Virus record (IMG/VR): IMGVR_UViG_3300029816_000015
Coordinates: 1 to 23,279 of that record
Source of the DNA: a virus
Lineage: Duplodnaviria > Heunggongvirae > Uroviricota > Caudoviricetes
Length of the DNA: 23,279 nt
Reading direction: 5' to 3' (one strand)
The notes beneath the pieces were generated by a model. That model ran no database searches. It worked only from the letters and a program-made list of their open reading frames with translations, and had not been told where the DNA came from. How positions within the stretch are numbered: the first letter of the stretch is position 1; every line of letters starts with the position of its first letter. A program made the translations under genes and the position numbers. This document shows, one piece after another, positions 3,559 through 21,023 of the stretch.

Positions 3559-4911
3559 TTATTCGTAAGCCACTGTACCTTTCAAGTCAACATCCAAGAT
3601 AGCCCCTGCTAAGATACCTGCGAAGGTAACATCTTTCAGGATACGAGCTTTCTTGTCTGCCAAAGCAACTTGAGAGGCTTTAGGAACATTAACTGTGTAA
3701 GATGACAGGAAGTTTCTGTTGACTGCTCTTTGTAGAGAGGTTTCAATGACTTGACGAATACGGGTAATACCAGTATCATCATAAGTAATCTTACCACCCT
3801 TCTGGTTAATTAGCAAGTCTCTCAGAGAAGTTTTCAGGTCTGATTCCAACCAGTCAACACCACGGACGATATCAATCCATTCCCCACCAGAAGTAATCCC
3901 TCTACGAACCACTGGAACACCACCATCAAGGTCAATAAAGTTACAGTGACGTGCATCTAAAGCTGACTTCTGAATACTTGTCAGAGGTCTCTTATTAGCT
4001 GGCTGTAGAGAAGCAGCTACACCAGTTAGCTGAGCATTACCCCAAGCAATTGAACCTGCATCATATGGAGCACCATAAGCAATATATGCCATCTCTGGAT
4101 AATCTTCTGCCGCTGTGTGATGCCACAAGCAAACTGTGCGAGTATACATACTCTTAGCAAGCTGTGCTGGAACATCATTTGCACTGTTTAATTCTGTACC
4201 TTGTAGTGCTGCTACATCAGAGTTAGCTGTGAAGAAGATTTTCTTACGAGCCTGAATCTCAGAAGCCATTGCCAAAACAAACTGTTGAGTTCTGTCTTCT
4301 GCTGCAATGAAATACCAGTCGGTAGAATAAGCTTCAATAGCTGCCAGAGCAGTTGACGCTGTATCAGCAGTTGTGCTTGCAATAGACACAGTTTGTGCTG
4401 TAGTGGTTACCTTCACGAAATCATTGTCACCAGCTTTGGAGATGACCATTGTGGCAGAACCGTTGCTACCAGTAACATTGACTGAAACTTTATCTTTAAT
4501 TGATTGGTCAGCTTCAATCTGTGTTTTAAACTGTTGTAATACATTCTCGGCAGTGTCTTCACCTTGTGAGGTGTACTGGAATGGTTGTGACATTCCCCCA
4601 CCGACAGCTACAGTAATTGAGTAGTCTGTACTTTCGGTAACAGCATCAGGAATTGATACAGTATACTGCATAGCACGTCTACCAATATAAAGCTGAGTTA
4701 CTTTAGGAGTCTGACTCCAAAGTTGTTTAGCAGCCTTATATGCAGCAGTATTCTCATCGAAATCTTCAGCAACTTCAGTTAAGGAAGTGTAGCCACGAAC
4801 TCTTTCTTCAAAGTTATCTGTTGAAGCTAAGAATAGTGGCAAACCAAAACCTTCTCTTGTAGTTCCTGCGGTGTTCAATGTAATATCTACATTAACAATT
4901 GGATTCCACAT
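3559..4911 (-). CDS. Tail sheath protein (putative)
   Basis: 450 aa ORF immediately upstream of the tube candidate; sheath-tube-chaperone-TMP order is typical of contractile tails. No motif verification possible. Confidence 0.5.
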   Translation of the reverse strand: MWNPIVNVDITLNTAGTTREGFGLPLFLASTDNFEERVRGYTSLTEVAEDFDENTAAYKAAKQLWSQTPKVTQLYIGRRAMQYTVSIPDAVTESTDYSITVAVGGGMSQPFQYTSQGEDTAENVLQQFKTQIEADQSIKDKVSVNVTGSNGSATMVISKAGDNDFVKVTTTAQTVSIASTTADTASTALAAIEAYSTDWYFIAAEDRTQQFVLAMASEIQARKKIFFTANSDVAALQGTELNSANDVPAQLAKSMYTRTVCLWHHTAAEDYPEMAYIAYGAPYDAGSIAWGNAQLTGVAASLQPANKRPLTSIQKSALDARHCNFIDLDGGVPVVRRGITSGGEWIDIVRGVDWLESDLKTSLRDLLINQKGGKITYDDTGITRIRQVIETSLQRAVNRNFLSSYTVNVPKASQVALADKKARILKDVTFAGILAGAILDVDLKGTVAYE

Positions 4912-13984: not shown

Positions 13985-14044
13985 AAAAAAGCCCTGTCTA
14001 AAAATACTCTTCGGTAGCGAAAGGAAGAATACTTATAGCAGGGC
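13985..14044 (-). terminator. Compound stem-loop with T-run downstream of the last tRNA (candidate terminator)
   Basis: Minus sense GCCCUG...(nested hairpin)...CAGGGC followed by UUUUUU; loop is long (about 40 nt) so function is uncertain. Confidence 0.35.
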
Positions 14045-14084
14045 ATTATTATTATTTTAATTGAGAGAGAGTAAAATAACTTGG

Positions 14085-14157
14085 AGAATCCGAAGGGACT
14101 CGAACCCTTATAGACCTGTTTTGCAGACAGGCACATAGCCATTTCTGTCACGGATTC
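14085..14157 (-). tRNA. tRNA-Cys (anticodon GCA)
   Basis: Hand-folded: acceptor CGGATTC pairing, T arm AAGGG-TTCGAGT-CCCTT, anticodon loop CTGCAAA, encoded CCA at 14082-14084, U73. Confidence 0.7.
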
Positions 14158-14164
14158 AAATTGG

Positions 14165-14254
14165 AGGAAGATACCAGACTTGAACTGGTACACCGATTTC
14201 TCAGCTACTGGCAGTTTAGCAAACTGCTCCCTTACCTTTTAGGGTTAATCTTCC
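14165..14254 (-). tRNA. tRNA-Ser (anticodon GCT), long variable arm
   Basis: 90 nt; acceptor GGAAGAT/ATCTTCC, T arm ACCAG-TTCAAGT-CTGGT, anticodon stem GCAGT/ACTGC with loop TTGCTAA, long variable arm; CCA encoded. Confidence 0.7.
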
Positions 14255-14255
14255 A

Positions 14256-14990
14256 TTATTTCTGTAATGCGTTCTTCATTTCTGGTGTTGCAATAGTATC
14301 AATTACACCAGTTTTACAAGCATCATCAAACCAGTCTGGTAAGATACCTGCTAAGAACCCATTGATATTCGTTTTAAGGTACTCTGCAATAAGGGCAGCT
14401 TCTTCTTCAATCATCTGCACAACTTCATCTGCATAAGCTGTAATCTTCGAGATACCTTCATTAATCTTACTAACAGCTTGGTTAGCTAAATCAGAAACAG
14501 TATCAAGACCTTTATCAATAGCATCTTGTAAGTCACTTAATACATCATTAACACCGTCTAGTGCACTGTTAATTGTGTCAATAGCTTTTTGACCATACTC
14601 TGTAGCAACACCCATAATACCACTAAATGGTGTACAACCAACTTGCTCTCCTGCTGCACCCATAACATTGGAGTAGCCTTTTGCTACCTGCATACGTGAG
14701 GAAAACTCATCAATAGACTTTTGACCATAATCTGTCAATGTCTTAGTGGTTGATGTAGTGCTTGTCAGACTCGTTGTAAAGCTATTAAGCAGAGCTGTTG
14801 TAAGTCCAGCAGCAATGAGCTTATCCTTCATTGTAGGGTCTGTTACAGAGCTAATAGAGCTTACAAGTGATGTAGAGGCAGCCACGGTTCCACCTAGAAC
14901 TGCTGCACCAGTAATAAGGGGATTAGAAAACCCTCTACCGGTTTTTAAGAGATTAAAAATCTCCTTACCTTGTTCTGTCATCTCTTTCAT
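14256..14990 (-). CDS. Hypothetical protein embedded in the tRNA array
   Basis: 245 aa from ATG 14988-14990 with RBS AAGGTG 5 nt upstream; the ORF-track 5' extension to 15053 overlaps tRNA-Phe and is rejected. Ala/Thr/Ser-rich, helical C-terminal half. Confidence 0.55.
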   Translation of the reverse strand: MKEMTEQGKEIFNLLKTGRGFSNPLITGAAVLGGTVAASTSLVSSISSVTDPTMKDKLIAAGLTTALLNSFTTSLTSTTSTTKTLTDYGQKSIDEFSSRMQVAKGYSNVMGAAGEQVGCTPFSGIMGVATEYGQKAIDTINSALDGVNDVLSDLQDAIDKGLDTVSDLANQAVSKINEGISKITAYADEVVQMIEEEAALIAEYLKTNINGFLAGILPDWFDDACKTGVIDTIATPEMKNALQK

Positions 14991-15008
14991 TAAGCACCTT
15001 TGAAATTG

Positions 15009-15083
15009 GTAGTCCAGTGGGATTTGAACCCTCTTCTCATGTTTTTCAGACACGCGCTTTAACCATATAAGCTACTTGGACTA
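15009..15083 (-). tRNA. tRNA-Phe (anticodon GAA)
   Basis: Acceptor TAGTCCA/TGGACTA; T loop TTCAAAT; anticodon stem-loop CGTGT-CTGAAAA-ACATG; D stem weak. Confidence 0.55.
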
Positions 15084-15091
15084 TAAATTGG

Positions 15092-15164
15092 GGTGACCTA
15101 CGGGATTTGAACCCGTATAGACCATGTTCACAGCATGGGTCATTACCTTTTATGATAAGGCCAC
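15092..15164 (-). tRNA. tRNA-His (anticodon GTG)
   Basis: Acceptor GTGGCCT/AGGTCAC, D stem TCAT/ATGA, anticodon stem CCATG/CATGG with loop CTGTGAA, T arm ACGGG-TTCAAAT-CCCGT, CCA encoded. Confidence 0.7.
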
Positions 15165-15198
15165 ATTTAAGGACTCTCGTAAGAACCCTTAGAAGTGG

Positions 15199-15271
15199 CA
15201 GCGGCATAAGGATTTGAACCTTAATAAGACAGCTTCAGAGACTGTTGCATTGCCAGTTATGCTATACCGCT
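15199..15271 (-). tRNA. tRNA-Gln (anticodon CTG)
   Basis: Acceptor AGCGGTA/TGCCGCT, D stem GCAT/ATGC, anticodon loop CTCTGAA, T arm TAAGG-TTCAAAT-CCTTA, CCA encoded. Confidence 0.65.
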
Positions 15272-15279
15272 AAATTTGG

Positions 15280-15355
15280 TACTCCATATCGGATTCGAAC
15301 CGATACATAACACAGATTTTAAGTCTGGCCTCTCTGCCAATTGGAGTAATGGAGC
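15280..15355 (-). tRNA. tRNA with Leu anticodon TAA but short variable arm (76 nt)
   Basis: Acceptor GCTCCAT/ATGGAGT, U8, D stem CTC/GAG, anticodon stem CAGA/TCTG with loop CTTAAAA, 7-8 nt variable loop, T arm ATCGG-TTCGAAT-CCGAT, A73, CCA encoded. Confidence 0.5.
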
Positions 15356-15360
15356 ATTGG

Positions 15361-15433
15361 CGGGGGATGTTGGAATTGAACCAACTTCTTCGATTTCAAA
15401 GACCGAGGTTTTAACCTTGTAAACTAATCCCCT
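15361..15433 (-). tRNA. tRNA-Gln (anticodon TTG)
   Basis: Acceptor with A1-C72 mismatch, T arm GTTGG-TTCAATT-CCAAC, anticodon stem TCGGT/ATCGA with loop CTTTGAA, CCA encoded. Confidence 0.6.
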
Positions 15434-15441
15434 TTAAATCT

Positions 15442-15999
15442 TTACTTTCTTAGTGGATGAATAAAGAATGCCAACATAACTCTTTCCCTTGAGAATGCTC
15501 TTTCTTCTGGGACAACACTTTTAAGTTTCCACCCAACATAAATTCTCCAGTAGAATTGCTTACCAAAGACTTTAATTGACGGGATAAAAGCGAATAATCC
15601 CCAAGCATTACTGTTCCACATTAGGAGATAACCTGTCTGATTATCTTCAGGGTTAGAACTTACATTGATATTACCTTTCCACTTAGTAACATCTTTTACA
15701 TCTCTTCCTAACACATGGTAAGAGAAGTTATAAGCTTTGTTTCTCCAGAGCCAACCAACTCTCTGCATATAGACACCAAGCTTACCAATCTTTCTAATCT
15801 TAGCCCATCGTTCGACATGACCTTTATCACCATCAATTGGGTTGTCATATGTCTCCATCCATCTGAATCCAAAAGGGAGATGTCCTTTCTTCTCACTGTA
15901 GAATGGAACTACGAAAGGTGCTAAGATAACTGCTAAGATTGCTGCAAATGGCTCTAACAAAGCTAAGAAAATCCATGAAGCATACTTCAAATATCTCAT
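15442..15999 (-). CDS. Hypothetical membrane protein embedded in tRNA array
   Basis: 185 aa ORF with RBS AAGAGG upstream of ATG; N-terminal hydrophobic helix (WIFLALLEPFAAILAVILAPFVVPF), Trp/Lys-rich remainder; flanked tightly by tRNA genes. Confidence 0.55.
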   Translation of the reverse strand: MRYLKYASWIFLALLEPFAAILAVILAPFVVPFYSEKKGHLPFGFRWMETYDNPIDGDKGHVERWAKIRKIGKLGVYMQRVGWLWRNKAYNFSYHVLGRDVKDVTKWKGNINVSSNPEDNQTGYLLMWNSNAWGLFAFIPSIKVFGKQFYWRIYVGWKLKSVVPEERAFSRERVMLAFFIHPLRK

Positions 16000-16021
16000 C
16001 TAAATAGCCTCTTTAAATTGG

Positions 16022-16094
16022 CGCAGGATAAGGGATTCGAACCCCTATTAACAGCTTCGTAGACTGTTGCTCTATCCATTTGAACTAATCCTGC
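16022..16094 (-). tRNA. tRNA-Arg (anticodon ACG)
   Basis: Acceptor GCAGGAT/ATCCTGC, T arm AGGGG-TTCGAAT-CCCTT, anticodon stem ACAGT/GCTGT with loop CTACGAA, CCA encoded. Confidence 0.65.
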
Positions 16095-16102
16095 AAAACT
16101 GG

Positions 16103-16177
16103 TGTTCCAAGACGGATTCGAACCGTCACTAATACAAGGTTTGAGCTTGCATCCTCTGCCAATTGGGATACTGGAAC
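16103..16177 (-). tRNA. tRNA with Leu anticodon CAA but short variable arm (75 nt)
   Basis: Acceptor GTTCCAG/TTGGAAC, U8, D stem TCC/GGA, anticodon stem GCAAG/CTTGT with loop CTCAAAC, 6-nt variable loop, T arm GACGG-TTCGAAT-CCGTC, A73, CCA encoded; length fixed by adjacent tRNA-Val. Confidence 0.55.
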
Positions 16178-16181
16178 ATGG

Positions 16182-16254
16182 TACTCACTAAAGGACTTGA
16201 ACCTTTTTTCTTCATCTTGTAAGGGTGATGTTTTACCATATAAACTAAGCGAGT
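16182..16254 (-). tRNA. tRNA-Val (anticodon TAC)
   Basis: Acceptor ACTCGCT/AGTGAGT, T arm AAAGG-TTCAAGT-CCTTT, anticodon loop CTTACAA, CCA encoded. Confidence 0.65.
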
Positions 16255-16353
16255 ATGAAAGAGGTCTGAAGTTGTGCCGCTAACTCAACTCCGTGGAATT
16301 TGTTATGGTCTTCAGTTGACTCAAAGCGGTCTTTCACTTGACCTCTAAATTGG

Positions 16354-16425
16354 TGCTCCCACAAGGATTCGAACCCTGATAAGTTGCTTACAAGGCAACC
16401 GTAATAGCCAATTATACGATAGGAG
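16354..16425 (-). tRNA. tRNA-Thr (anticodon TGT)
   Basis: Acceptor GCTCCTA/TGGGAGC, T arm CAGGG-TTCGAAT-CCTTG, perfect anticodon stem GTTGC/GCAAC with loop CTTGTAA, CCA encoded. Confidence 0.65.
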
Positions 16426-16436
16426 CATTAATTTGG

Positions 16437-16508
16437 AGCATCCAGAGGGAATCGAACCCTCAACCTCAGTTTGGAAGACTGTAATTTTCCCGTTTAAACT
16501 ATGGATGC
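16437..16508 (-). tRNA. tRNA-Gly (anticodon TCC)
   Basis: Acceptor GCATCCA/TGGATGC perfect, T arm GAGGG-TTCGATT-CCCTC, anticodon loop CTTCCAA, CCA encoded. Confidence 0.7.
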
Positions 16509-16517
16509 ACTAATTGG

Positions 16518-16590
16518 TGGAGTCACTGAGAATTGAACTCAGTTCCCAAGTTTGCAAAACTCGAATTTTAACCATATAAACTATGACCCC
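16518..16590 (-). tRNA. tRNA-Ala (anticodon TGC)
   Basis: Acceptor GGGGTCA/TGACTCC with G3-U70, T arm CTGAG-TTCAATT-CTCAG, anticodon loop TTTGCAA, CCA encoded. Confidence 0.7.
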
Positions 16591-16599
16591 ATTGCTTGG

Positions 16600-16672
16600 T
16601 ACAGGTGGAGGGAATTGAACCCATCGTCTTACTGATTAAGAGTCAGCCGCATAACCATTTTGCTACACCTGC
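16600..16672 (-). tRNA. tRNA-Lys (anticodon CTT)
   Basis: Acceptor GCAGGTG/CACCTGT, D stem GCA/TGC, anticodon stem CTGA/TCAG with loop CTCTTAA, T loop TTCAATT with only 3 clean T-stem pairs, CCA encoded. Confidence 0.55.
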
Positions 16673-16682
16673 ATTAATTTGG

Positions 16683-16757
16683 TAGGAGACAAGGGATTCG
16701 AACCCTCAAACACCAACTTCTAAGGATGGTAGGTTTACCAATTACCGTCAATCTCCC
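16683..16757 (-). tRNA. tRNA with Leu anticodon TAG but short variable arm (75 nt)
   Basis: Acceptor GGGAGAT/GTCTCCT (two G-U pairs), anticodon stem CCATC/GTTGG with loop CTTAGAA, T arm GAGGG-TTCGAAT-CCCTT, A73, CCA encoded; two extra nt between acceptor and D stem. Confidence 0.45.
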
Positions 16758-17011
16758 ATTAAATCTTTTTAGAGAACTTCTAAGAACCTAAGCAACAAGG
16801 TTCCACAACAAGCTGTAATAACCTTAGAAGCCCTCTAAAAAGACCTAATTTGGTCTTTGCATAGTCTTGTTTAATCCGGTGACTAGAACCTTTGGAGAGC
16901 TTGATATATCTCTTCTCCGTGACACCTACTAGGTGCTTTATCAGTGTACGACAATACACGAGGGATAAACCGAAAATGCGAGCAAGCATGGACGGTGTAA
17001 ATCTTATTAGG

Positions 17012-17099
17012 CGGTAAGTAAAGGAGTCGAACCCTCACCGTATCTCTACAGTGGCAACAGTTTTCAAGACTGTTTGGCTGCCATTAGCCGCTACCTACC
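17012..17099 (-). tRNA. tRNA-Ser (anticodon TGA), long variable arm
   Basis: 88 nt; acceptor GGTAGGT/ACTTACC, 3-bp D stem, perfect anticodon stem ACAGT/ACTGT with loop CTTGAAA, long variable arm, T loop TTCGACT. Confidence 0.6.
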
Positions 17100-17115
17100 C
17101 CTAATAAGATTTTGG

Positions 17116-17195
17116 CATGGGACGGAGGAGTTGAACCCCTTTGAAACGGTTTTGGAGGCCGTTGCTCATGCCTTAGAGTCTTAACATCGTCCCAT
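17116..17195 (-). tRNA. tRNA-Trp (anticodon CCA), enlarged D region
   Basis: 80 nt; acceptor ATGGGAC/GTCCCAT perfect, anticodon stem ACGG/CCGT with loop CTCCAAA, T loop TTCAACT, CCA encoded; D region about 7 nt longer than standard. Confidence 0.5.
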
Positions 17196-17340
17196 ACTGT
17201 AATTCGAAGCTTACCGTATTTTCACAACACTGTAAAGCCCCTTCTCAGATTATTTACATGTTCTGGAAAACATGAGATACAGACCACCTCCTTACACGGA
17301 GACCCGATAAGGTCGTCTAAGCAATCTGCTAACTATTTGG

Positions 17341-17414
17341 CACACCCTACAGGATTCGAACCTGTAACTCAATGATTAGAAGTCATTTGCTCTGTCCAGT
17401 TGAACTAAGGGTGC
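17341..17414 (-). tRNA. tRNA-Arg (anticodon TCT)
   Basis: Acceptor GCACCCT/AGGGTGT, T arm ACAGG-TTCGAAT-CCTGT, perfect anticodon stem AATGA/TCATT with loop CTTCTAA, CCA encoded. Confidence 0.7.
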
Positions 17415-17617
17415 ATTAATCTTTAAAAACTCTCTTAGAAAGCCCTTAAAGATGCCCACCTTATTAATCATACCGTGGGCTAGTACGCCAAATTCTTTGA
17501 TGAGGGATTGGAAGACCTCACTGGTGTTTAGCCTATCAAGCTACTGCCAGAAAAACATTGTCGTTTGCATTTATTTTAAATTTGCAAAATAGACGCTACG
17601 CAACGAAAACTAAGGTT

Positions 17618-17646
17618 ACTATAAAGTGGTCACATCTAAATGTCAA
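17618..17646 (-). promoter_or_regulatory. Sigma70-like promoter inside the tRNA array (minus sense TTGACA-N17-TATAGT)
   Basis: -35 TTGACA at 17646..17641 and -10 TATAGT at 17623..17618 with a 17-bp spacer; predicted start near 17610, about 195 nt upstream of tRNA-Arg(TCT). Confidence 0.5.
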
Positions 17647-17664
17647 CAACTTTATTGAAATTGG

Positions 17665-17737
17665 TACTGGTAGGTGGAATCGAACCACCGATGTTCCCTT
17701 ATCAGGGGAGTGTTATAACCTTCTTAACTATACCAGC
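17665..17737 (-). tRNA. tRNA-Ile (anticodon GAT)
   Basis: Acceptor GCTGGTA/TACCAGT, T arm GGTGG-TTCGATT-CCACC, anticodon loop CTGATAA, CCA encoded. Confidence 0.7.
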
Positions 17738-17741
17738 TTGG

Positions 17742-17815
17742 AGGTTCAGATGGGATTCGAACCCACATTCATAGGGCTTATGAGACCCTTGCATTACCTT
17801 ATCTGCGACTGAACC
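17742..17815 (-). tRNA. tRNA with anticodon CAT (Met elongator or Ile2-type)
   Basis: Acceptor GGTTCAG/CTGAACC perfect, D stem GCA/TGC, anticodon stem AGGGT/GCCCT with loop CTCATAA, T arm GTGGG-TTCGAAT-CCCAT, CCA encoded. Confidence 0.65.
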
Positions 17816-17822
17816 ATATTGG

Positions 17823-17895
17823 TAGAAGTGGAGGGATTCGAACCCATCGCCTGTCAGATTAAAAGTCTGCCGCATCACCATTCTGCTACACTTCC
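17823..17895 (-). tRNA. tRNA-Lys (anticodon TTT)
   Basis: Acceptor GGAAGTG/CACTTCT, anticodon stem CAGA/TCTG with loop CTTTTAA, T loop TTCGAAT with GGG/CCC core as in the other Lys tRNA, CCA encoded. Confidence 0.55.
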
Positions 17896-17901
17896 ATTAA
17901 A

Positions 17902-18040
17902 TTATCTTTGTAGATAAGCTACCCAGACTTGCTTAAGGTCTGTAGCGATGTGCCTTGTTGGGTTTAAATCTAGAATTTACCCTTTCACCCTTTGTGGTCG
18001 CATACTCACAGGTAAGCTTAATAACTTATCTACAAAGATA
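17902..18040 (-). repeat. Long hairpin: 17-bp perfect inverted repeat (TTATCTTTGTAGATAAG / CTTATCTACAAAGATAA) enclosing about 105 nt
   Basis: Arms at 17902-17918 and 18024-18040 are exact reverse complements; interior holds smaller hairpins including CCAGAC-N8-GGTCTG (17922-17943); no tRNA fold found. Confidence 0.5.
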
Positions 18041-18044
18041 ATTA

Positions 18045-18176
18045 CCAGACCGTTGTTTATCATCTTAAGTGCTACCATTACACCAACTCGACATCTGCCG
18101 AGTGAAGGAATCGAACCTTCGCCTTTTCTTTACCGGAGAAATAGATTGTTTAAGTTTTGCTGTAAACGGTCTTCTG
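18045..18176 (-). ncRNA. Candidate Y-RNA-like ncRNA (YrlA-type) with permuted tRNA-like module
   Basis: Closing helix from minus-sense CAGAAGACCGUU (5') and AACGGUCUGG (3'); interior in minus sense has T arm GAAGG-UUCGAUU-CCUUC, then hairpin ACUCGGC-AGAU-GUCGAGU, then D-arm-like UGGUGUAAUGGUAGCAC. No anticodon arm. Confidence 0.4.
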
Positions 18177-18188
18177 TAAATTTGTTGA

Positions 18189-18265
18189 GCCAGACCAAGT
18201 TTTAAATTTTCAAAATTAAATTGGCTTTAAATTTTAAGTAACTTGCTGAATTTGGTCTTCTGCTC
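18189..18265 (-). ncRNA. Bulged-helix hairpin element, same closing helix as 18045..18176, AT-rich interior
   Basis: Arms GCCAGACCAAG (18189-18199) and TTGGTCTTCTGC (18252-18263) pair as AGACC/GGUCU plus a 3-nt bulge plus GG/CC; loop about 50 nt without tRNA-like arms. Confidence 0.3.
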
Positions 18266-18277
18266 CTTTAAAGAATA

Positions 18278-18314
18278 CTCGTAAGAACCCTTTAAGGGAG
18301 GGGCTAAATAGCCC
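18278..18314 (-). promoter_or_regulatory. Conserved spacer motif (minus sense CTTAAAGGGTTCTTACGAG) next to small hairpin GGGCTA-AA-TAGCCC
   Basis: Near-identical to the motif at 15174-15195 (minus sense CTTCTAAGGGTTCTTACGAGAG); weaker copies at 16770-16790 and 17428-17450. Function unknown. Confidence 0.3.
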
Positions 18315-18326
18315 TCTCAAAATTGG

Positions 18327-18400
18327 CGGTTACGATGAGACTTGAACTCACATCATCTCCCGTGACAGGGGAGTATTTTATCCAGTTAAACTACATAACC
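18327..18400 (-). tRNA. tRNA-Asp (anticodon GTC)
   Basis: Acceptor GGTTATG/CGTAACC, T arm GTGAG-TTCAAGT-CTCAT, perfect anticodon stem CTCCC/GGGAG with loop CTGTCAC, CCA encoded. Confidence 0.65.
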
Positions 18401-18409
18401 TTTATTTGG

Positions 18410-18494
18410 TGTGCCGTGTAGGAGTCGAACCTACCGAGTCTCAATGACAAGGGATTTACAGTCCCCACCGCTACCATCTACGGGATAACGACAC
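18410..18494 (-). tRNA. tRNA-Tyr (anticodon GTA), long variable arm
   Basis: 85 nt; acceptor GTGTCGT/ACGGCAC, D stem CCG/CGG, anticodon stem GGGGA/TCCCT with loop CTGTAAA, long variable arm, T arm GTAGG-TTCGACT-CCTAC, CCA encoded. Confidence 0.65.
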
Positions 18495-18506
18495 ATTTAA
18501 ATTTGG

Positions 18507-18580
18507 CGGTTAGTCAGGGATTCGAACCCTGTGCCATTCGCTTAACAGGCGACCGCACATACCTTATGTGCTTCCTAACC
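18507..18580 (-). tRNA. tRNA-Asn (anticodon GTT)
   Basis: D stem GCAC/GTGC perfect, anticodon stem GTCGC/GCGAA with loop CTGTTAA, T arm CAGGG-TTCGAAT-CCCTG, CCA encoded. Confidence 0.65.
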
Positions 18581-18590
18581 TTAATATATT

Positions 18591-18655
18591 GCCAGACCGT
18601 GTTTTTTTTTCTTTTATCCGCAAAAAGTAGTTTATTGCTGCATACGGTCTTCTGC
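18591..18655 (-). ncRNA. Bulged-helix hairpin element (third copy)
   Basis: Arms GCCAGACCGT (18591-18600) and ACGGTCTTCTGC (18644-18655); 7-bp helix plus 3-nt bulge plus G-C pairs; 43-nt loop with a poly-T run on plus. Confidence 0.3.
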
Positions 18656-18663
18656 AAAATTGG

Positions 18664-18737
18664 AGGCGGGTGCAGGAGTCGAACCTGCCGATGCCATGCT
18701 AATGAGACATGTGAGACGCCCTTTCTCTATACCCGCA
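18664..18737 (-). tRNA. tRNA with anticodon CAT (second copy; Met, fMet or Ile2-type)
   Basis: Acceptor TGCGGGT/ACCCGCC with 1:72 mismatch, T arm GCAGG-TTCGACT-CCTGC, anticodon stem CATGT/GCATG with loop CTCATTA (U at position 37), CCA encoded. Confidence 0.5.
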
Positions 18738-18748
18738 ATTCTTAATGA

Positions 18749-18821
18749 CCAGACCAAATCTCTTCTTTGTCCGATTTAGCTTCAGATGAATAAGATTAAG
18801 TTTGCTGTAATTGGTCTTCTG
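18749..18821 (-). ncRNA. Bulged-helix hairpin element (fourth copy)
   Basis: Arms CCAGACCAAA (18749-18758) and TTGGTCTTCTG (18811-18821) enclosing an AT-rich 50-nt loop. Confidence 0.3.
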
Positions 18822-18831
18822 TCAAAACTGG

Positions 18832-18906
18832 CGTTCCAGAAGGGATTTTAACCCTCAAATATCCACTTTGAAAGAGTGGTGACTATACCATTTTGTCTAC
18901 TGGAAC
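18832..18906 (-). tRNA. tRNA-Glu (anticodon TTC)
   Basis: Acceptor GTTCCAG/CTGGAAC perfect, D stem GAC/GTC, perfect anticodon stem CCACT/AGTGG with loop CTTTCAA, unusual T loop TTAAAAT, CCA encoded. Confidence 0.6.
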
Positions 18907-18916
18907 ATTAATTTGG

Positions 18917-18990
18917 TCTCTGTTGGAGGACTTGAACCTCCGGCCTTACCGCCCCAAACGGAACACTCTACCAAGCTGAGCTAAACAGAG
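18917..18990 (-). tRNA. tRNA-Pro (anticodon TGG); first gene of the array in transcription order
   Basis: Acceptor CTCTGTT/AACAGAG perfect, T arm GGAGG-TTCAAGT-CCTCC, anticodon loop TTTGGGG, CCA encoded. Confidence 0.65.
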
Positions 18991-19016
18991 ATAAACTTTT
19001 CAAACTCTATGTAACC

Positions 19017-19046
19017 ACTTTAACATTATTTTTTAGTGATTGTCAA
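19017..19046 (-). promoter_or_regulatory. Sigma70-like promoter for the tRNA array (minus sense TTGACA-N18-TAAAGT)
   Basis: -35 TTGACA at 19046..19041, -10 TAAAGT at 19022..19017; predicted start about 10-20 nt upstream of tRNA-Pro. Confidence 0.45.
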
Positions 19047-19108
19047 GAACTTTTTTAAAATATTTTTCAGTATCTTAGAAAAGCTCTCATTTCGTTTCTA
19101 TGTAGAAC

Positions 19109-19137
19109 ATATTAAAGGGTATCAAACACATTGTCAA
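19109..19137 (-). promoter_or_regulatory. Second sigma70-like promoter (minus sense TTGACA-N17-TAATAT) overlapping a hairpin
   Basis: -35 TTGACA at 19137..19132, -10 TAATAT at 19114..19109, 17-bp spacer; the -35 lies in the loop of hairpin GGGTAT...ATACCC (19117-19142). Confidence 0.45.
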
Positions 19138-19147
19138 TACCCTTTTT
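19115..19147. terminator. Hairpin GGGTAT-N14-ATACCC flanked by T/A runs (candidate terminator for the upstream minus-strand operon)
   Basis: 6-bp stem; on plus followed by TTTTT, in minus sense by UUUAAU; sits 10 nt downstream of the stop of the vWA gene. Confidence 0.35.
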
Positions 19148-19155
19148 AAAACTTT

Positions 19156-19521
19156 TTACCAGATATAACGGTCAACCATTACTGCTTTGAGCATTACGCT
19201 GATTGGGTCAAACTTCTCACCACCAAGCAGAGCTTTTAAAGTGGCTGGAGAGAACCCTGATACCATCGCTACACCATTATCCTTAACAGATACTTCGCAA
19301 GTACCATTACGGTTTGCTAAGTACCAGAATACTAGTTGTGGCATTTCGTATCCAGCTTTTTTGTACTTACTCTGAATTGCTTCAAAGTTTGTACGACCAT
19401 TTGCACCATCAACCTGATTAAACTCCATATCAGAGAAGATAATAAGCTTACTTGGCATATCTTTCTGAGTCAAGTTGTTTCTCTTACCTATCTCAAGAAT
19501 ACGGTCAAAGCTGCTTGTAAG
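19156..19521 (-). CDS. C-terminal part of Ro60/Rsr-like (or DUF2828-like) vWA-domain protein, out of frame with N-terminal part
   Basis: Frame open from just after a TAA at 19522-19524; encodes LTSSFDRILEIGKRNNLTQKDMPSKLIIFSDMEFN... (second half of a vWA fold). ORF track entry 19156..19473 begins at an internal TTG. Confidence 0.55.
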   Translation of the reverse strand, partial: LTSSFDRILEIGKRNNLTQKDMPSKLIIFSDMEFNQVDGANGRTNFEAIQSKYKKAGYEMPQLVFWYLANRNGTCEVSVKDNGVAMVSGFSPATLKALLGGEKFDPISVMLKAVMVDRYIW

Positions 19522-20570
19522 TTAGTTGAACCATATTCAACATGACGCATTACCTGACGATGACGGTTTCGTAAATCACCACTCAGTTCAATGAAATGAG
19601 GGTTTGTTGAATAGACCATTAACTCATCTTTAAAGCAACCTGTATTGCGTTCTGCTACATACAAGGCAAGTGATACACCAATATCAAGGGCAGTGATTGA
19701 ACCAAGATTCACCCAAGACATTGAGCTTGAAACATCAGTCATACACAAGATGTTCTCACCTTCTGCCATCCAGTTTGGTAGTGCTTTCCACTGCTCATTA
19801 GCAACATCTGCATTACCATGCTTGATAGACTTAATCACATCGTATGGGTAGACAGCACCAGCATTAATCTTAGCCTCACCTTTTGATAAGGACTCAATGT
19901 AAGCTTTGTAGCGTTCTCCATCTTTGCGGTTAAAGAGCTTTTGGTAACGTGCAGCAGCAAGAGACGGAATCTTACTGTAATCAATCTTACCAAACTCATT
20001 AGCAGAGATTTTTTGCTCAACCGTATCAGACAGTGCAGATAACAGTGTGCGGTATTCTTTCTCGCTTAAGTTTGCAAACTTACAGAAACGTTTTACAAAC
20101 TGTTTGTGTCGTGGTTTTACTCGTGGTAACCACTTGGCTGCTAAACCTGCTGTCTCAGGGTCTAGTAATGCTGCTTCTAAATGCTTAAAGGCATCTGTCT
20201 CAAAACGAGTACCTACGAAGATTTTGAAGTCATCAAAACGACCAAGTTCTGCAATCTTATCCATAATACGAAGAAACTGTGTAGGCTCTAAAACTTTATC
20301 TTCGATTGCTTGAAGTAAAACAGTTCTGAAGGCTTTACGCTCACCCATACCTTCTCGTACATCTCGCATGTGAAGCAAAATACGAACTGCAACATCAACA
20401 TCCTCACGCAAAGCTTTGTAGAACAAGTCTGGTAAGATTTCTACATTGCTACGGCTTGAACCAGCAGCTTTGTAAAAGTCCACAAGAGCAGACATTGATG
20501 AAGTATGGTTTACAGCACCATTTTCAGTTCGACCTGCATGAAGGTGCGCATGTTTAAATAATTCGCTCAT
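19488..20570 (-). CDS. N-terminal part of Ro60/Rsr-like (or DUF2828-like) protein: helical domain plus start of vWA domain
   Basis: 360 aa; RBS AAGAGAG upstream of ATG; helical N-terminal about 280 aa, then DxSxS motif (CMTDVSSSMSW) typical of a vWA MIDAS; ends at TAG 19488-19490 inside the vWA domain. Confidence 0.6.
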   Translation of the reverse strand: MSELFKHAHLHAGRTENGAVNHTSSMSALVDFYKAAGSSRSNVEILPDLFYKALREDVDVAVRILLHMRDVREGMGERKAFRTVLLQAIEDKVLEPTQFLRIMDKIAELGRFDDFKIFVGTRFETDAFKHLEAALLDPETAGLAAKWLPRVKPRHKQFVKRFCKFANLSEKEYRTLLSALSDTVEQKISANEFGKIDYSKIPSLAAARYQKLFNRKDGERYKAYIESLSKGEAKINAGAVYPYDVIKSIKHGNADVANEQWKALPNWMAEGENILCMTDVSSSMSWVNLGSITALDIGVSLALYVAERNTGCFKDELMVYSTNPHFIELSGDLRNRHRQVMRHVEYGSTNLQAALTVFLR

Positions 20571-20651: not shown

Positions 20652-21023
20652 TTATTTTTTGAGAGTCGCTACAGCAGAGAACGTTGGTTTGTTATCTGTC
20701 TGTGGTTGACCACCATTATCAGGAGTCTTCTTAGTGTCTGCTGCAAGTGCTTTCATCTCACCTGCTGAGTGAGTAAAGATAGTTTTACCGACCTCAATCA
20801 TACTCTTGATGGTTACATCGTCTGTGTTTAACCCGAACTCTGCAAGCTTAGCAGCATCCCTTGTAACAATCGCCTCAAACAGCTTTGCAGCAAACTCAGC
20901 AGAATTATCAATGGTCAGTTGAGCTTTTACGAGTGAGCTTTTGTTACGAGAGCCTTTTGGTCTTCCAGATGGGTTTCCAGATTGGCCTTTTTTAAACTGG
21001 CCTTTGTTTGTTCTGTTTTTCAT
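20652..21023 (-). CDS. Small basic protein with N-terminal GNPSGRPKG motif (putative nucleic-acid-binding)
   Basis: 123 aa ORF, RBS AAGAGG 8 nt upstream; N-terminus KGQFKKGQSGNPSGRPKGSRNK; first gene of the minus-strand operon containing the Ro-like gene. Confidence 0.55.
   Translation of the reverse strand: MKNRTNKGQFKKGQSGNPSGRPKGSRNKSSLVKAQLTIDNSAEFAAKLFEAIVTRDAAKLAEFGLNTDDVTIKSMIEVGKTIFTHSAGEMKALAADTKKTPDNGGQPQTDNKPTFSAVATLKK

What the first reader, a model, noticed from the sequence alone, without database searches (positions are those of the whole stretch)
18045..20570. Ro60/Rsr-like TROVE+vWA gene next to Y-RNA-like elements inside the tRNA array
The gene at 19156..20570 has the architecture of Ro60/Rsr (N-terminal helical domain about 280 aa, then a vWA domain with a DxSxS motif). 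About 1 kb downstream in the same orientation, the tRNA array holds four elements closed by one shared bulged helix. One of them (18045..18176) encloses a tRNA-like module without an anticodon arm. Bacterial Ro60 orthologs are known to bind Y RNAs, and one class of bacterial/phage Y RNAs carries a tRNA-like module on a Ro-binding stem. The co-occurrence here suggests a phage-encoded Ro-like ribonucleoprotein system that I do not know to be described for this kind of phage.
Basis: partly seen in the sequence, partly recalled or inferred. Interest (0 to 1): 0.85.

Follow-up and report, generated by a model that had tools for sequence, protein, structure and literature searches.

The report
Phage Ro60-like protein with partner RNAs
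A FelixO1-type phage encodes a ring-shaped Ro60-like protein next to four small RNAs that share one conserved closing stem, and the same gene-plus-RNA pairing recurs in well over a hundred other phage and bacterial loci, pointing to an undescribed Ro/Y-RNA-like particle.

Summary

The four minus-strand elements are real. Each has a 7-bp helix (5'-AGACCNN / NNGGUCU-G-3') followed by NNN-CAGCAA. E4 encloses a permuted tRNA-like module: T arm, closed acceptor stem, D arm, the same order as bacterial YrlA.

This 'handle' defines a large RNA family. In 160 loci chosen only for a DUF2828 homologue (33-47% identity outside Felixounavirus), it occurs about 280 times on the gene strand and 17 times opposite. 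Most copies lie within 600 nt of the gene, including in tRNA-free loci. Six of seven helix pairs covary.

A 2024 preprint already noted that Bas63 gp130 (this gene) resembles Ro60 and counters the Ppl defence. It only guessed that some annotated tRNAs were Y RNAs. I found no prior description of the RNAs themselves. Protein-RNA binding is inferred, not shown.

The handle also matches every hallmark of Dictyostelium Class I RNAs, which are reported as unique to dictyostelids. That link is untested.

The parts
19156..20570 (-). Gene for a Ro60-fold protein (N-terminal helical-repeat ring, DUF2828; C-terminal vWA/MIDAS domain, DUF7788). It is 471 aa in relatives. Here it is split by a 1-nt deletion in a T run at 19507-19509.
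18747..18823 (-). E1, a short handle RNA. Outer stem GAC/GUC, AGA/G internal loop, 7-bp helix AGACCAA/UUGGUCU followed by G, then UUA-CAGCAA, with an AU-rich interior.
18590..18656 (-). E2, a short handle RNA. Helix AGACCGU/ACGGUCU followed by G, then AUG-CAGCAA.
   Evidence: Rfam Dicty_Class_I_RNA sub-threshold hit at 18593-18649, 22 bits.
18187..18265 (-). E3, a short handle RNA. Outer stem GAGC/GCUC, helix AGACCAA/UUGGUCU followed by G, then AUU-CAGCAA.
18042..18179 (-). E4, a long handle RNA. Outer stem UUAC/GUAA, helix AGACCGU/ACGGUCU followed by G, then UUA-CAGCAA, enclosing a tRNA-like cargo.
18069..18141 (-). tRNA-like module of E4. It has an extra 5-bp hairpin (18125-18141), a T arm GAAGG-UUCGAUU-CCUUC (18104-18120), a closed acceptor-like hairpin (18086-18103) and a D arm GUGU-AAUGGUA-GCAC (18069-18083). 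The order is the same as in YrlA.
   Evidence: Rfam tRNA partial hit, 22 bits. YrlA consensus layout. RNAalifold on 20 loci: 21 of 23 pairs have compensatory changes.
19017..19137 (-). Two sigma-70-like promoter matches (TTGACA-17-TAATAT at 19137-19109; TTGACA-18-TAAAGT at 19046-19017) between the gene and the tRNA/handle-RNA array. They would co-transcribe E1-E4 with the tRNAs.
   Evidence: These are consensus matches only, and the regional count does not exceed shuffles.

Best explanation
The gene encodes a divergent Ro60-type protein: a ring of helical repeats closed by a vWA/MIDAS domain, in Pfam families DUF2828+DUF7788. E1-E4 are its cognate small RNAs, functionally equivalent to Y RNAs.

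Each RNA has a constant 'handle'. This is a terminal 7-8-bp helix that begins 5'-(A)AG and ends CU-G-3', followed immediately on the 5' strand by single-stranded N-U-W-CAGCAA. Each RNA also has a variable 'cargo': an AU-rich loop in E1-E3 and a permuted tRNA mimic in E4.

Shown here:
- The protein has the Ro60 fold.
- The RNAs exist as conserved, covarying structures.
- RNA and gene are linked in position and strand across very diverse phages and prophage-like loci.
- Cargo modules are often tRNA-like.

Inferred:
- The RNAs are cut out of the tRNA-array transcript.
- The protein binds the handle, as Ro60 binds the conserved Y-RNA stem.
- The cargo tethers or decoys tRNA-recognising host factors, such as processing, repair or anticodon-nuclease-type defence enzymes. 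That would fit the published anti-defence phenotype of the orthologue Bas63 gp130.

For: RNA family in 84 loci (1.39 Mb):
- A strict scan finds 146 elements on the gene strand, 9 on the opposite strand and 5.8 in shuffles.
- 64 of 80 IMG/VR loci carry an element. 74 of 130 hits lie within 600 nt of the gene, including loci with no tRNA.
- A sequence-only motif gives 174 matches on the gene strand and 21 opposite. 128 of the 174 have a 7-bp partner, against 1 of 21. 124 of the 128 are followed by G.
- Six of seven pairs show double changes. The covariation score is 0.965, against 0.219 for shuffles and at most 0.19 for slid controls.

Independent set. In 80 bacterial or archaeal genome loci there are 134 hits on the gene strand and 8 opposite. 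62 of 80 loci are positive, with arrays of 1-6 elements abutting the gene.

Control set. In 1.04 Mb of viral DNA not chosen for DUF2828, the strict scan gave 18 hits over both strands, close to the opposite-strand and shuffle rates. The five that look real sit in three loci, and two of those loci carry DUF2828.

Cargo. An RNAalifold consensus of 20 long elements gives handle, T arm, closed acceptor stem and D arm. Rfam YrlA hits these elements at 26-42 bits, E 7e-6 to 0.16.

Function. Deleting Bas63 gp130 impairs growth on a host carrying the Ppl defence system (PMC11482910).
Against: - No physical evidence shows that the protein binds these RNAs.
- gp130 expressed alone, from a plasmid or from the T7 genome without the phage RNAs, restores T7 plaquing on Ppl. 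At least that activity does not need the cognate RNAs.
- There is no TROVE sequence signature.
- There is no Rfam Y_RNA or YrlA hit on the window.
- The handle does not resemble the canonical Ro60-binding Y-RNA helix.
- 16 of 80 viral and 18 of 80 genomic loci have no strict hit.
- The gene is frameshifted in this particular sequence.
- No transcriptome data were available to show discrete RNAs.
Confidence: 0.7

Rival explanations
1. The elements are punctuation or processing signals of phage tRNA-array transcripts, such as RNase entry sites or spacers. They sit near DUF2828 only because that gene also tends to lie beside tRNA arrays.
For: In the window they lie between tRNAs and are probably co-transcribed. 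About 35 of 60 scanned DUF2828 loci have co-oriented tRNAs within 10 kb. In tandem arrays, neighbouring elements abut within 1-10 nt, like tRNAs do.
Against: Many loci with no tRNA at all (L011, L013, L018, L022, L024, L025 and others) still have the element 25-35 nt after the DUF2828 stop codon. In bacterial loci the arrays lie directly upstream of the gene. The tRNA arrays of the window from 14000 to 17900 contain none.
Confidence: 0.1
2. The elements are cis-regulatory leaders or trailers of the DUF2828 mRNA, for example autoregulatory protein-binding sites, rather than free small RNAs.
For: Elements lie immediately upstream (Firmicutes and many IMG/VR loci) or immediately downstream of the gene, on the same strand.
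Against: There are up to six tandem copies with different cargo, including tRNA mimics and, in L039, a complete tRNA-Thr. In Felixounavirus they are separated from the gene by promoter-like sites and six tRNAs. The position can be 5' or 3' of the gene.
Confidence: 0.08
3. The protein is a stand-alone anti-defence inhibitor that acts through its vWA/MIDAS protein-interaction surface. The Ro60-like ring is a scaffold, and the RNAs, if bound at all, are irrelevant to its function.
For: gp130 alone rescues T7 on Ppl and even improves plating beyond the no-defence control. vWA/MIDAS domains are classical protein-binding modules.
Against: This does not explain why a covarying RNA family tracks the gene across phyla. 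In the plasmid or T7 setting the protein could use host RNAs.
Confidence: 0.15
4. E4 is a decayed or circularly permuted tRNA gene, and E1-E3 are degenerate copies of it. They would be relics of tRNA-array turnover with no function of their own.
For: The tRNA model gives a partial hit of 22 bits on E4. A degenerate tRNA-like sequence exists nearby at about 17103-17193.
Against: The handle and the T, acceptor and D helices are kept by compensatory changes in 20 loci whose proteins are only 33-47% identical to this one outside Felixounavirus. The handle is invariant across the five Felixounavirus IMG/VR loci and three GenBank records examined, while interiors drift.
Confidence: 0.04

Closest known systems
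Ro60 (Rsr) - Y RNA / YrlA ribonucleoprotein of bacteria and some phages (Chen et al. 2014, PMC4201824; Thermus phage phiLo phiRo60-Yrl1/2, PMC12135203)
   Same: The protein has the same fold: a helical-repeat ring plus vWA/MIDAS. The RNA genes are adjacent and co-oriented, often in several copies. The RNAs are modular, with a terminal stem plus a variable module. One RNA per locus often carries a permuted tRNA mimic with the T arm, closed acceptor stem and D arm in the same order as YrlA.
   Different: The protein belongs to Pfam DUF2828/DUF7788, not TROVE (11-15% identity to solved Ro60s). The RNA handle (AG-helix-CU-G plus CAGCAA) is unrelated in sequence to the Ro60-binding helix. YrlA model scores are far below the gathering cut-off. 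No binding or effector data exist.
Bas63 (Escherichia phage JohannRWettstein) gp130, PhageMaP preprint PMC11482910
   Same: It is the orthologous gene (bas63_0130, directly upstream of the tRNA array). It is already described as structurally similar to Ro60 and as a counter of the Ppl defence system.
   Different: The preprint only speculates that 'some tRNA genes are possibly Y RNAs'. The actual candidates are four unannotated elements between the tRNAs, and the family-wide handle motif was not reported.
Dictyostelid Class I RNAs (Rfam RF01414; Kjellin et al. 2021, PMC7919456)
   Same: Both are short RNAs (roughly 45-75 nt for most of the phage short class). The 5' and 3' ends form a 6-7-bp stem whose sequence varies with compensatory changes. 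Both start (A)AG and end CUG(U). A conserved single-stranded motif ending UUACAGCAA lies directly after the 5' strand, and the interior is variable. All seven RF01414 hits in my searches fall on handle elements.
   Different: Scores of 13-31 bits are below the cut-off of 41.5. The spacing between stem and CAGCAA is 1 nt shorter. Class I RNAs are eukaryotic, have a DUSE promoter and have a known RRM binder (Rnp1A). I could not check whether dictyostelids have a DUF2828 protein.

Membership tests
Ro60 / TROVE (Pfam PF05731) | TROVE-domain sequence signature | tested here: not met
   There is no TROVE hit at E<=10 for the protein, nor at E<=1 for any of 35 homologues. There are no Ro60 hits in PDB sequence or profile searches.
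Ro60 / TROVE (Pfam PF05731) | Ring of alpha-helical repeats closed by a C-terminal vWA domain | tested here: met
Ro60 / TROVE (Pfam PF05731) | MIDAS motif (DxSxS ... T ... D) in the vWA domain | tested here: met
   D279, S281, S283, T349 and D381 are invariant in 35 homologues.
Ro60 / TROVE (Pfam PF05731) | Binds Y RNA stem and misfolded RNA ends | not testable with these tools
   Needs RIP, EMSA or a structure.
DUF2828 + DUF7788 (PF11443, PF25043; PHROG 850) | Scores above Pfam gathering cut-offs for both domains | tested here: met
   DUF2828 scores 104.6 bits (cut-off 29) and DUF7788 146.3 bits (cut-off 27.1). PHROG 850 E=8e-183.
YrlA (Rfam RF02553) | Covariance-model score at or above 69 bits | tested here: not met
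   There is no hit on E4, even in a 181-nt search at E<=10. Related long elements score 26.5-41.6 bits.
YrlA (Rfam RF02553) | Permuted tRNA-like domain: T arm, closed acceptor stem, D arm inside a terminal stem | tested here: met
   Direct reading and MFE fold of E4. The layout is identical to the YrlA consensus. The RNAalifold consensus has 21 of 23 covarying pairs.
YrlA (Rfam RF02553) | Conserved Ro60-binding helix of Y RNAs | tested here: not met
   The handle sequence AGNNNNN/NNNNNCU-G plus CAGCAA differs from the YrlA consensus stems shown.
YrlA (Rfam RF02553) | Encoded next to a Ro60 orthologue | tested here: inconclusive
   The elements lie next to a Ro60-fold protein that is not a TROVE-family orthologue.
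Dictyostelid Class I RNA (Rfam RF01414) | Covariance-model score at or above 41.5 bits | tested here: not met
   E2 scores 22 bits and E4 12.8 bits. Relatives score 24.3-30.8 bits.
Dictyostelid Class I RNA (Rfam RF01414) | Short terminal stem with compensatory changes, conserved AAG start and CUGU end, and a CCUUACAGCAA motif after the 5' strand | tested here: met
   The phage consensus is (A)AG-N5 ... N5-CU-G with N-U-W-CAGCAA, and UUACAGCAA is the commonest form. Compare PMC7919456 text and its supplementary file 19. The spacer is 1 nt shorter.
Dictyostelid Class I RNA (Rfam RF01414) | DUSE promoter about 60 nt upstream; restricted to Dictyostelia | tested here: not met
   These are phage and bacterial loci with sigma-70-like promoters. 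The paper reports none outside Dictyostelia.
Canonical tRNA | Cloverleaf recognised by ARAGORN or by Rfam tRNA at 29 bits or more | tested here: not met
   ARAGORN calls none at 18042-18179. The Rfam tRNA hit is 22 bits, covering model positions 7-64 only.

The most novel reading that the evidence does not exclude
DUF2828 proteins and 'handle' RNAs form an ancient ribonucleoprotein, parallel to Ro60-Y RNA, that is shared by phages, giant viruses of protists and eukaryotes. On this reading, the Class I RNAs of Dictyostelium are its eukaryotic members. Those RNAs are abundant, developmentally important, of unknown mechanism and currently thought to be unique to dictyostelids. Their missing core partner would be a DUF2828 protein, possibly the uncharacterised pull-down protein DDB_G0281243.

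Support:
- The handle architecture is the same: AAG start, 6-7-bp covarying stem, UUACAGCAA, CUG end.
- All seven RF01414 hits in my searches coincide with handle elements.
- DUF2828-fold proteins occur in Pithovirus, Marseillevirus, CroV, Mimiviridae and Bodo saltans virus and in plants.

Not tested: whether any dictyostelid has a DUF2828 gene.
Probability: 0.35. Interest if true: 0.92.

Novelty: new variant of a known kind. Interest (0 to 1): 0.8.

Why it matters
Ro60-Y RNA particles are a classic but still poorly understood RNA-surveillance system. Known bacterial and phage examples were found only by searching next to TROVE-domain genes.

Here a second, sequence-unrelated branch of the same fold turns out to carry its own large RNA family. 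That family has a simple and easily testable recognition element. It has swappable cargo that includes tRNA mimics, and it is present in hundreds of phages, among them FelixO1-type phages of E. coli and Salmonella.

One member already has a genetic phenotype as a counter to the Ppl defence system. The question 'what do Y-like RNAs do during infection?' therefore becomes directly testable in E. coli.

If the resemblance to Dictyostelium Class I RNAs is real, it would also give those RNAs a candidate protein partner and an origin outside dictyostelids.

Tried and rejected
- Rfam at gathering threshold on the window found only tRNAs.
- Rfam at permissive thresholds gave no Y_RNA or YrlA hit on the elements. 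The single YrlA 'hit' at 15021-15143 is two adjacent true tRNAs.
- Sequence and profile searches of PDB and NCBIfam gave nothing meaningful for the protein.
- A mini covariance model built from handle-only constructs (R1) failed. The real interiors are too long for the model window, so I used explicit pattern scans with strand and shuffle controls instead.
- A collection scan with a wrongly spaced pattern (5 N instead of 4) returned 120 chance matches, mostly coding sequence. I kept it as a negative control.
- A k-turn reading of the AGA/G loop was rejected because there are no tandem G-A pairs.
- The freshwater-1 RNA next to a DUF2828 gene in L118 is a separate motif, not the handle.
- The AlphaFold-database fold libraries were unavailable.
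- I could not retrieve any eukaryotic DUF2828 sequence or DDB_G0281243. The Dictyostelium link therefore rests on RNA features only.


Full report
**What the window is.**
The 2.8-kb region is 95-97% identical to Felixounavirus genomes such as Ro111lw, UAB_Phi87 and Bas63/JohannRWettstein. 247 of 289 matching phage records cover at least 80% of it. ARAGORN finds 26 minus-strand tRNAs between 14082 and 18990. Rfam at gathering threshold finds nothing but tRNAs.

**The gene.**
ORFs 19488..20570 and 19156..19473 are one gene interrupted by a single-base deletion. The window has T3 at 19507-19509 where relatives have T4. Relatives encode 471 aa.

- Pfam assigns DUF2828 (N-terminal helical part) and DUF7788 (C-terminal vWA) well above cut-off.
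- PHROGs places it in phrog_850, 'RNA-binding protein'. RefSeq records carry the same product name.
- No TROVE signature is detectable by Pfam, NCBIfam, or PDB sequence or profile searches. Four of 35 homologues weakly touch Pfam vWA_Ro60 (best E 4.7e-4).
- An AlphaFold2 model built on 35 homologues (pLDDT 86.5, pTM 0.86) matches Ro60 over its whole length. All of the top 12 Foldseek PDB hits are Ro60/TROVE (E 6e-9 to 6e-7).
- The MIDAS residues are invariant.

So the protein is Ro60-like by architecture, but it belongs to a different sequence family.

**What is already known about the gene.**
It is bas63_0130. The PhageMaP preprint (PMC11482910) reports three things about Bas63 gp130. [quoted passage not shown] Deleting it cripples growth on a host carrying the Ppl defence. 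Expressing it alone, from a plasmid or from T7, rescues T7 on Ppl. [quoted passage not shown]

Bona fide TROVE Ro60 with Y-like RNAs is known in mycobacteriophages, CcrColossus, Bacillus phage G and Thermus phage phiLo. Those searches started from TROVE genes.

**The four elements.**
AGAAGACC occurs four times in the window, all on the minus strand between 18168 and 18820 (0 of 100 shuffles reach that). Each copy is paired with a downstream GGTCTGG.

Read on the minus strand, each element has this layout:
- an outer stem that varies but stays complementary;
- the loop AGA on the 5' side and G on the 3' side;
- a 7-bp helix AGACC(AA/GU) with (UU/AC)GGUCU;
- three further nucleotides, then CAGCAA.

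E1-E3 are 67-79 nt with AU-rich interiors. E4 (18042..18179) encloses a T arm, a closed acceptor-like hairpin and a D arm. That is exactly the order in the Rfam YrlA consensus. The YrlA model does not score E4.

**The elements define a widespread family tied to the gene.**
I fetched 80 IMG/VR loci chosen only because they encode a DUF2828 homologue. 75 of them are just 38-47% identical to the query. I scanned for a 7-bp helix, three nucleotides, CAGCAA, then a partner strand followed by G.

- Together with the window and three GenBank loci, this gave 146 strict hits on the gene strand, 9 on the opposite strand and 5.8 in shuffles.
- 64 of the 80 IMG/VR loci are positive.
- 74 of 130 hits lie within 600 nt of the gene, either just downstream or just upstream.
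- This includes loci that have no tRNA at all.

To avoid circularity I also selected on sequence alone, using [A/U]G[A/G]N4-N3-CAGCAA:
- 174 matches on the gene strand and 21 opposite;
- 128 of 174 have a complementary partner, against 1 of 21;
- 124 of the 128 are followed by an unselected G.

On 105 distinct handles, six of seven pairs show double changes. The covariation score is 0.965, against 0.219 for shuffles and at most 0.19 for slid registers. The 100% pairing in that table is by selection; the variety of pair types is not.

A second, independent set came from 80 loci in bacterial and archaeal genome assemblies: Oscillospiraceae, Chloroflexota, Proteobacteria, a Pacearchaeota MAG and others. 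It gives 134 hits on the gene strand and 8 opposite, with 62 of 80 loci positive. Arrays of up to six elements end just before the start codon.

An accidental negative control came from 120 viral loci seeded by a mis-spaced pattern. It shows the background rate. The only real-looking elements are in three loci, two of which contain DUF2828.

**Cargo.**
Interiors are modular.
- 43 of 265 distinct elements contain a strict T arm.
- Many have the permuted YrlA-like layout. An RNAalifold consensus of 20 such elements, E4 included, recovers the handle, T arm, closed acceptor stem and D arm, with compensatory changes in 21 of 23 pairs.
- Rfam YrlA hits several of them at 26-42 bits (E 7e-6 to 0.16), below the cut-off of 69.
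- In Oscillospiraceae the handle instead replaces the acceptor stem of an unpermuted tRNA-like body.
- In L039 the handle encloses a complete tRNA-Thr.
- Other handles carry conserved non-tRNA domains of 100-250 nt.

**Most likely mechanism.**
By analogy with Ro60-Y RNA, I propose that the DUF2828 ring binds the handle and the cargo brings in, or decoys, tRNA-recognising factors during infection. The fold, the RNA structures and the genomic coupling are shown here. Binding, processing and effector recruitment are inferred.

The strongest counter-evidence is that gp130 alone suffices against Ppl. The RNAs may therefore modulate or retarget the protein rather than be required for that activity.

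**An unexpected resemblance.**
The only non-tRNA-related Rfam family that hits the short elements is Dicty_Class_I_RNA. It hits E2 (22 bits), E4 (12.8 bits) and five relatives (24-31 bits), and every one of those seven hits falls on a handle element.

Kjellin et al. (PMC7919456) define Class I RNAs by four features: a 6-bp terminal stem with compensatory changes, a conserved AAG start and CUGU end, the motif CCUUACAGCAA after the 5' strand, and a variable interior. They conclude that the class is unique to Dictyostelia. The phage handle has all of these features, with a spacer 1 nt shorter.

DUF2828-fold proteins occur in giant viruses of protists and in plants. One of the four proteins pulled down with Class I RNA DdR-21, DDB_G0281243, is of unknown function. 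I could not check whether it, or any dictyostelid protein, is a DUF2828 member. This remains a hypothesis.

**Verdict.**
- The protein's Ro60 likeness is already in the literature.
- The RNA partners, their handle motif, their breadth and their tRNA-mimic cargo appear to be new. Four literature searches found no prior description, although subscription journals are not covered.
- I rate this a new variant of a known kind, of high interest.

Noticed in passing
window 17897-18044 (-): A 148-nt sequence directly 3' of E4 folds into a 24-bp closing stem with a multi-branched interior (MFE -48.3 kcal/mol, z = -6.4, 0 of 200 shuffles as stable). It has no Rfam match and no handle motif.
   Followed up: partly
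window ~17103-17193 (-): A degenerate tRNA-like sequence that ARAGORN does not call. It has an acceptor stem AUGGGACG/CGUCCCAU followed by GCCA and a T arm GGGGUUCAACUCCUC. It gives a weak tRNA-Sec model hit of 23 bits.
   Followed up: partly
window 17415-17530 (-): A strongly structured spacer between tRNA-Arg and tRNA-Ile (z = -4.3). Weak tmRNA-model hits overlap it.
   Followed up: no
window 19114-19145 (-): A sigma-70-like promoter match (TTGACA-17-TAATAT) is embedded in a 12-bp hairpin immediately after the gene's stop codon. It could act as terminator and promoter in one structure.
   Followed up: no
window 19507-19509: The Ro60-like gene is frameshifted by loss of one T in a T4 run. This may be a sequencing error or a real pseudogene. 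The two relatives aligned at this site have T4, and annotated relatives encode an intact 471-aa protein.
   Followed up: yes
L039 9734-9834: A complete tRNA-Thr(UGU) called by ARAGORN sits inside a handle helix with the CAGCAA motif.
   Followed up: partly
L127, L130, L131, L137-L139, L144, L154 (about 3630-3745 in each): In Oscillospiraceae genomes the handle (AAGGCACC...GGUGCCUU-G) replaces the acceptor stem of an unpermuted tRNA-like body whose anticodon-like loop reads CAU in most copies. It lies within arrays of 4-6 handle RNAs upstream of the DUF2828 gene.
   Followed up: partly
L118 796-1068: A freshwater-1 RNA (RF02979, 82.7 bits, above its cut-off) lies between handle RNAs and a DUF2828 gene. 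A neighbouring tRNA carries a 51-nt insert in the anticodon region that contains CAGCAA.
   Followed up: partly
L023, L028, L033, L035, L040, L055, L057: Phage tmRNA genes lie within a few kb of the DUF2828 gene, on the same strand. Handle RNAs often sit between them and nearby tRNA-Met genes.
   Followed up: no
L046 9652-9898, L059 9653-9900, L066 1891-2142, L067 9435-9674: Handles enclose a conserved cargo of about 240-250 nt (shared stretch ...GGCUUGCGGAACUGAACCGAUAUACUGGGGAA...GGCAAGCAGAAAAUAAAAUAC) of unknown identity.
   Followed up: no
window 14256-15053 and 15442-15999 (-): Two protein genes of unknown function (DUF7217 and DUF7338) are interspersed in the tRNA array. DUF5681 (20652-21023) lies immediately upstream of the Ro60-like gene.
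   Followed up: partly
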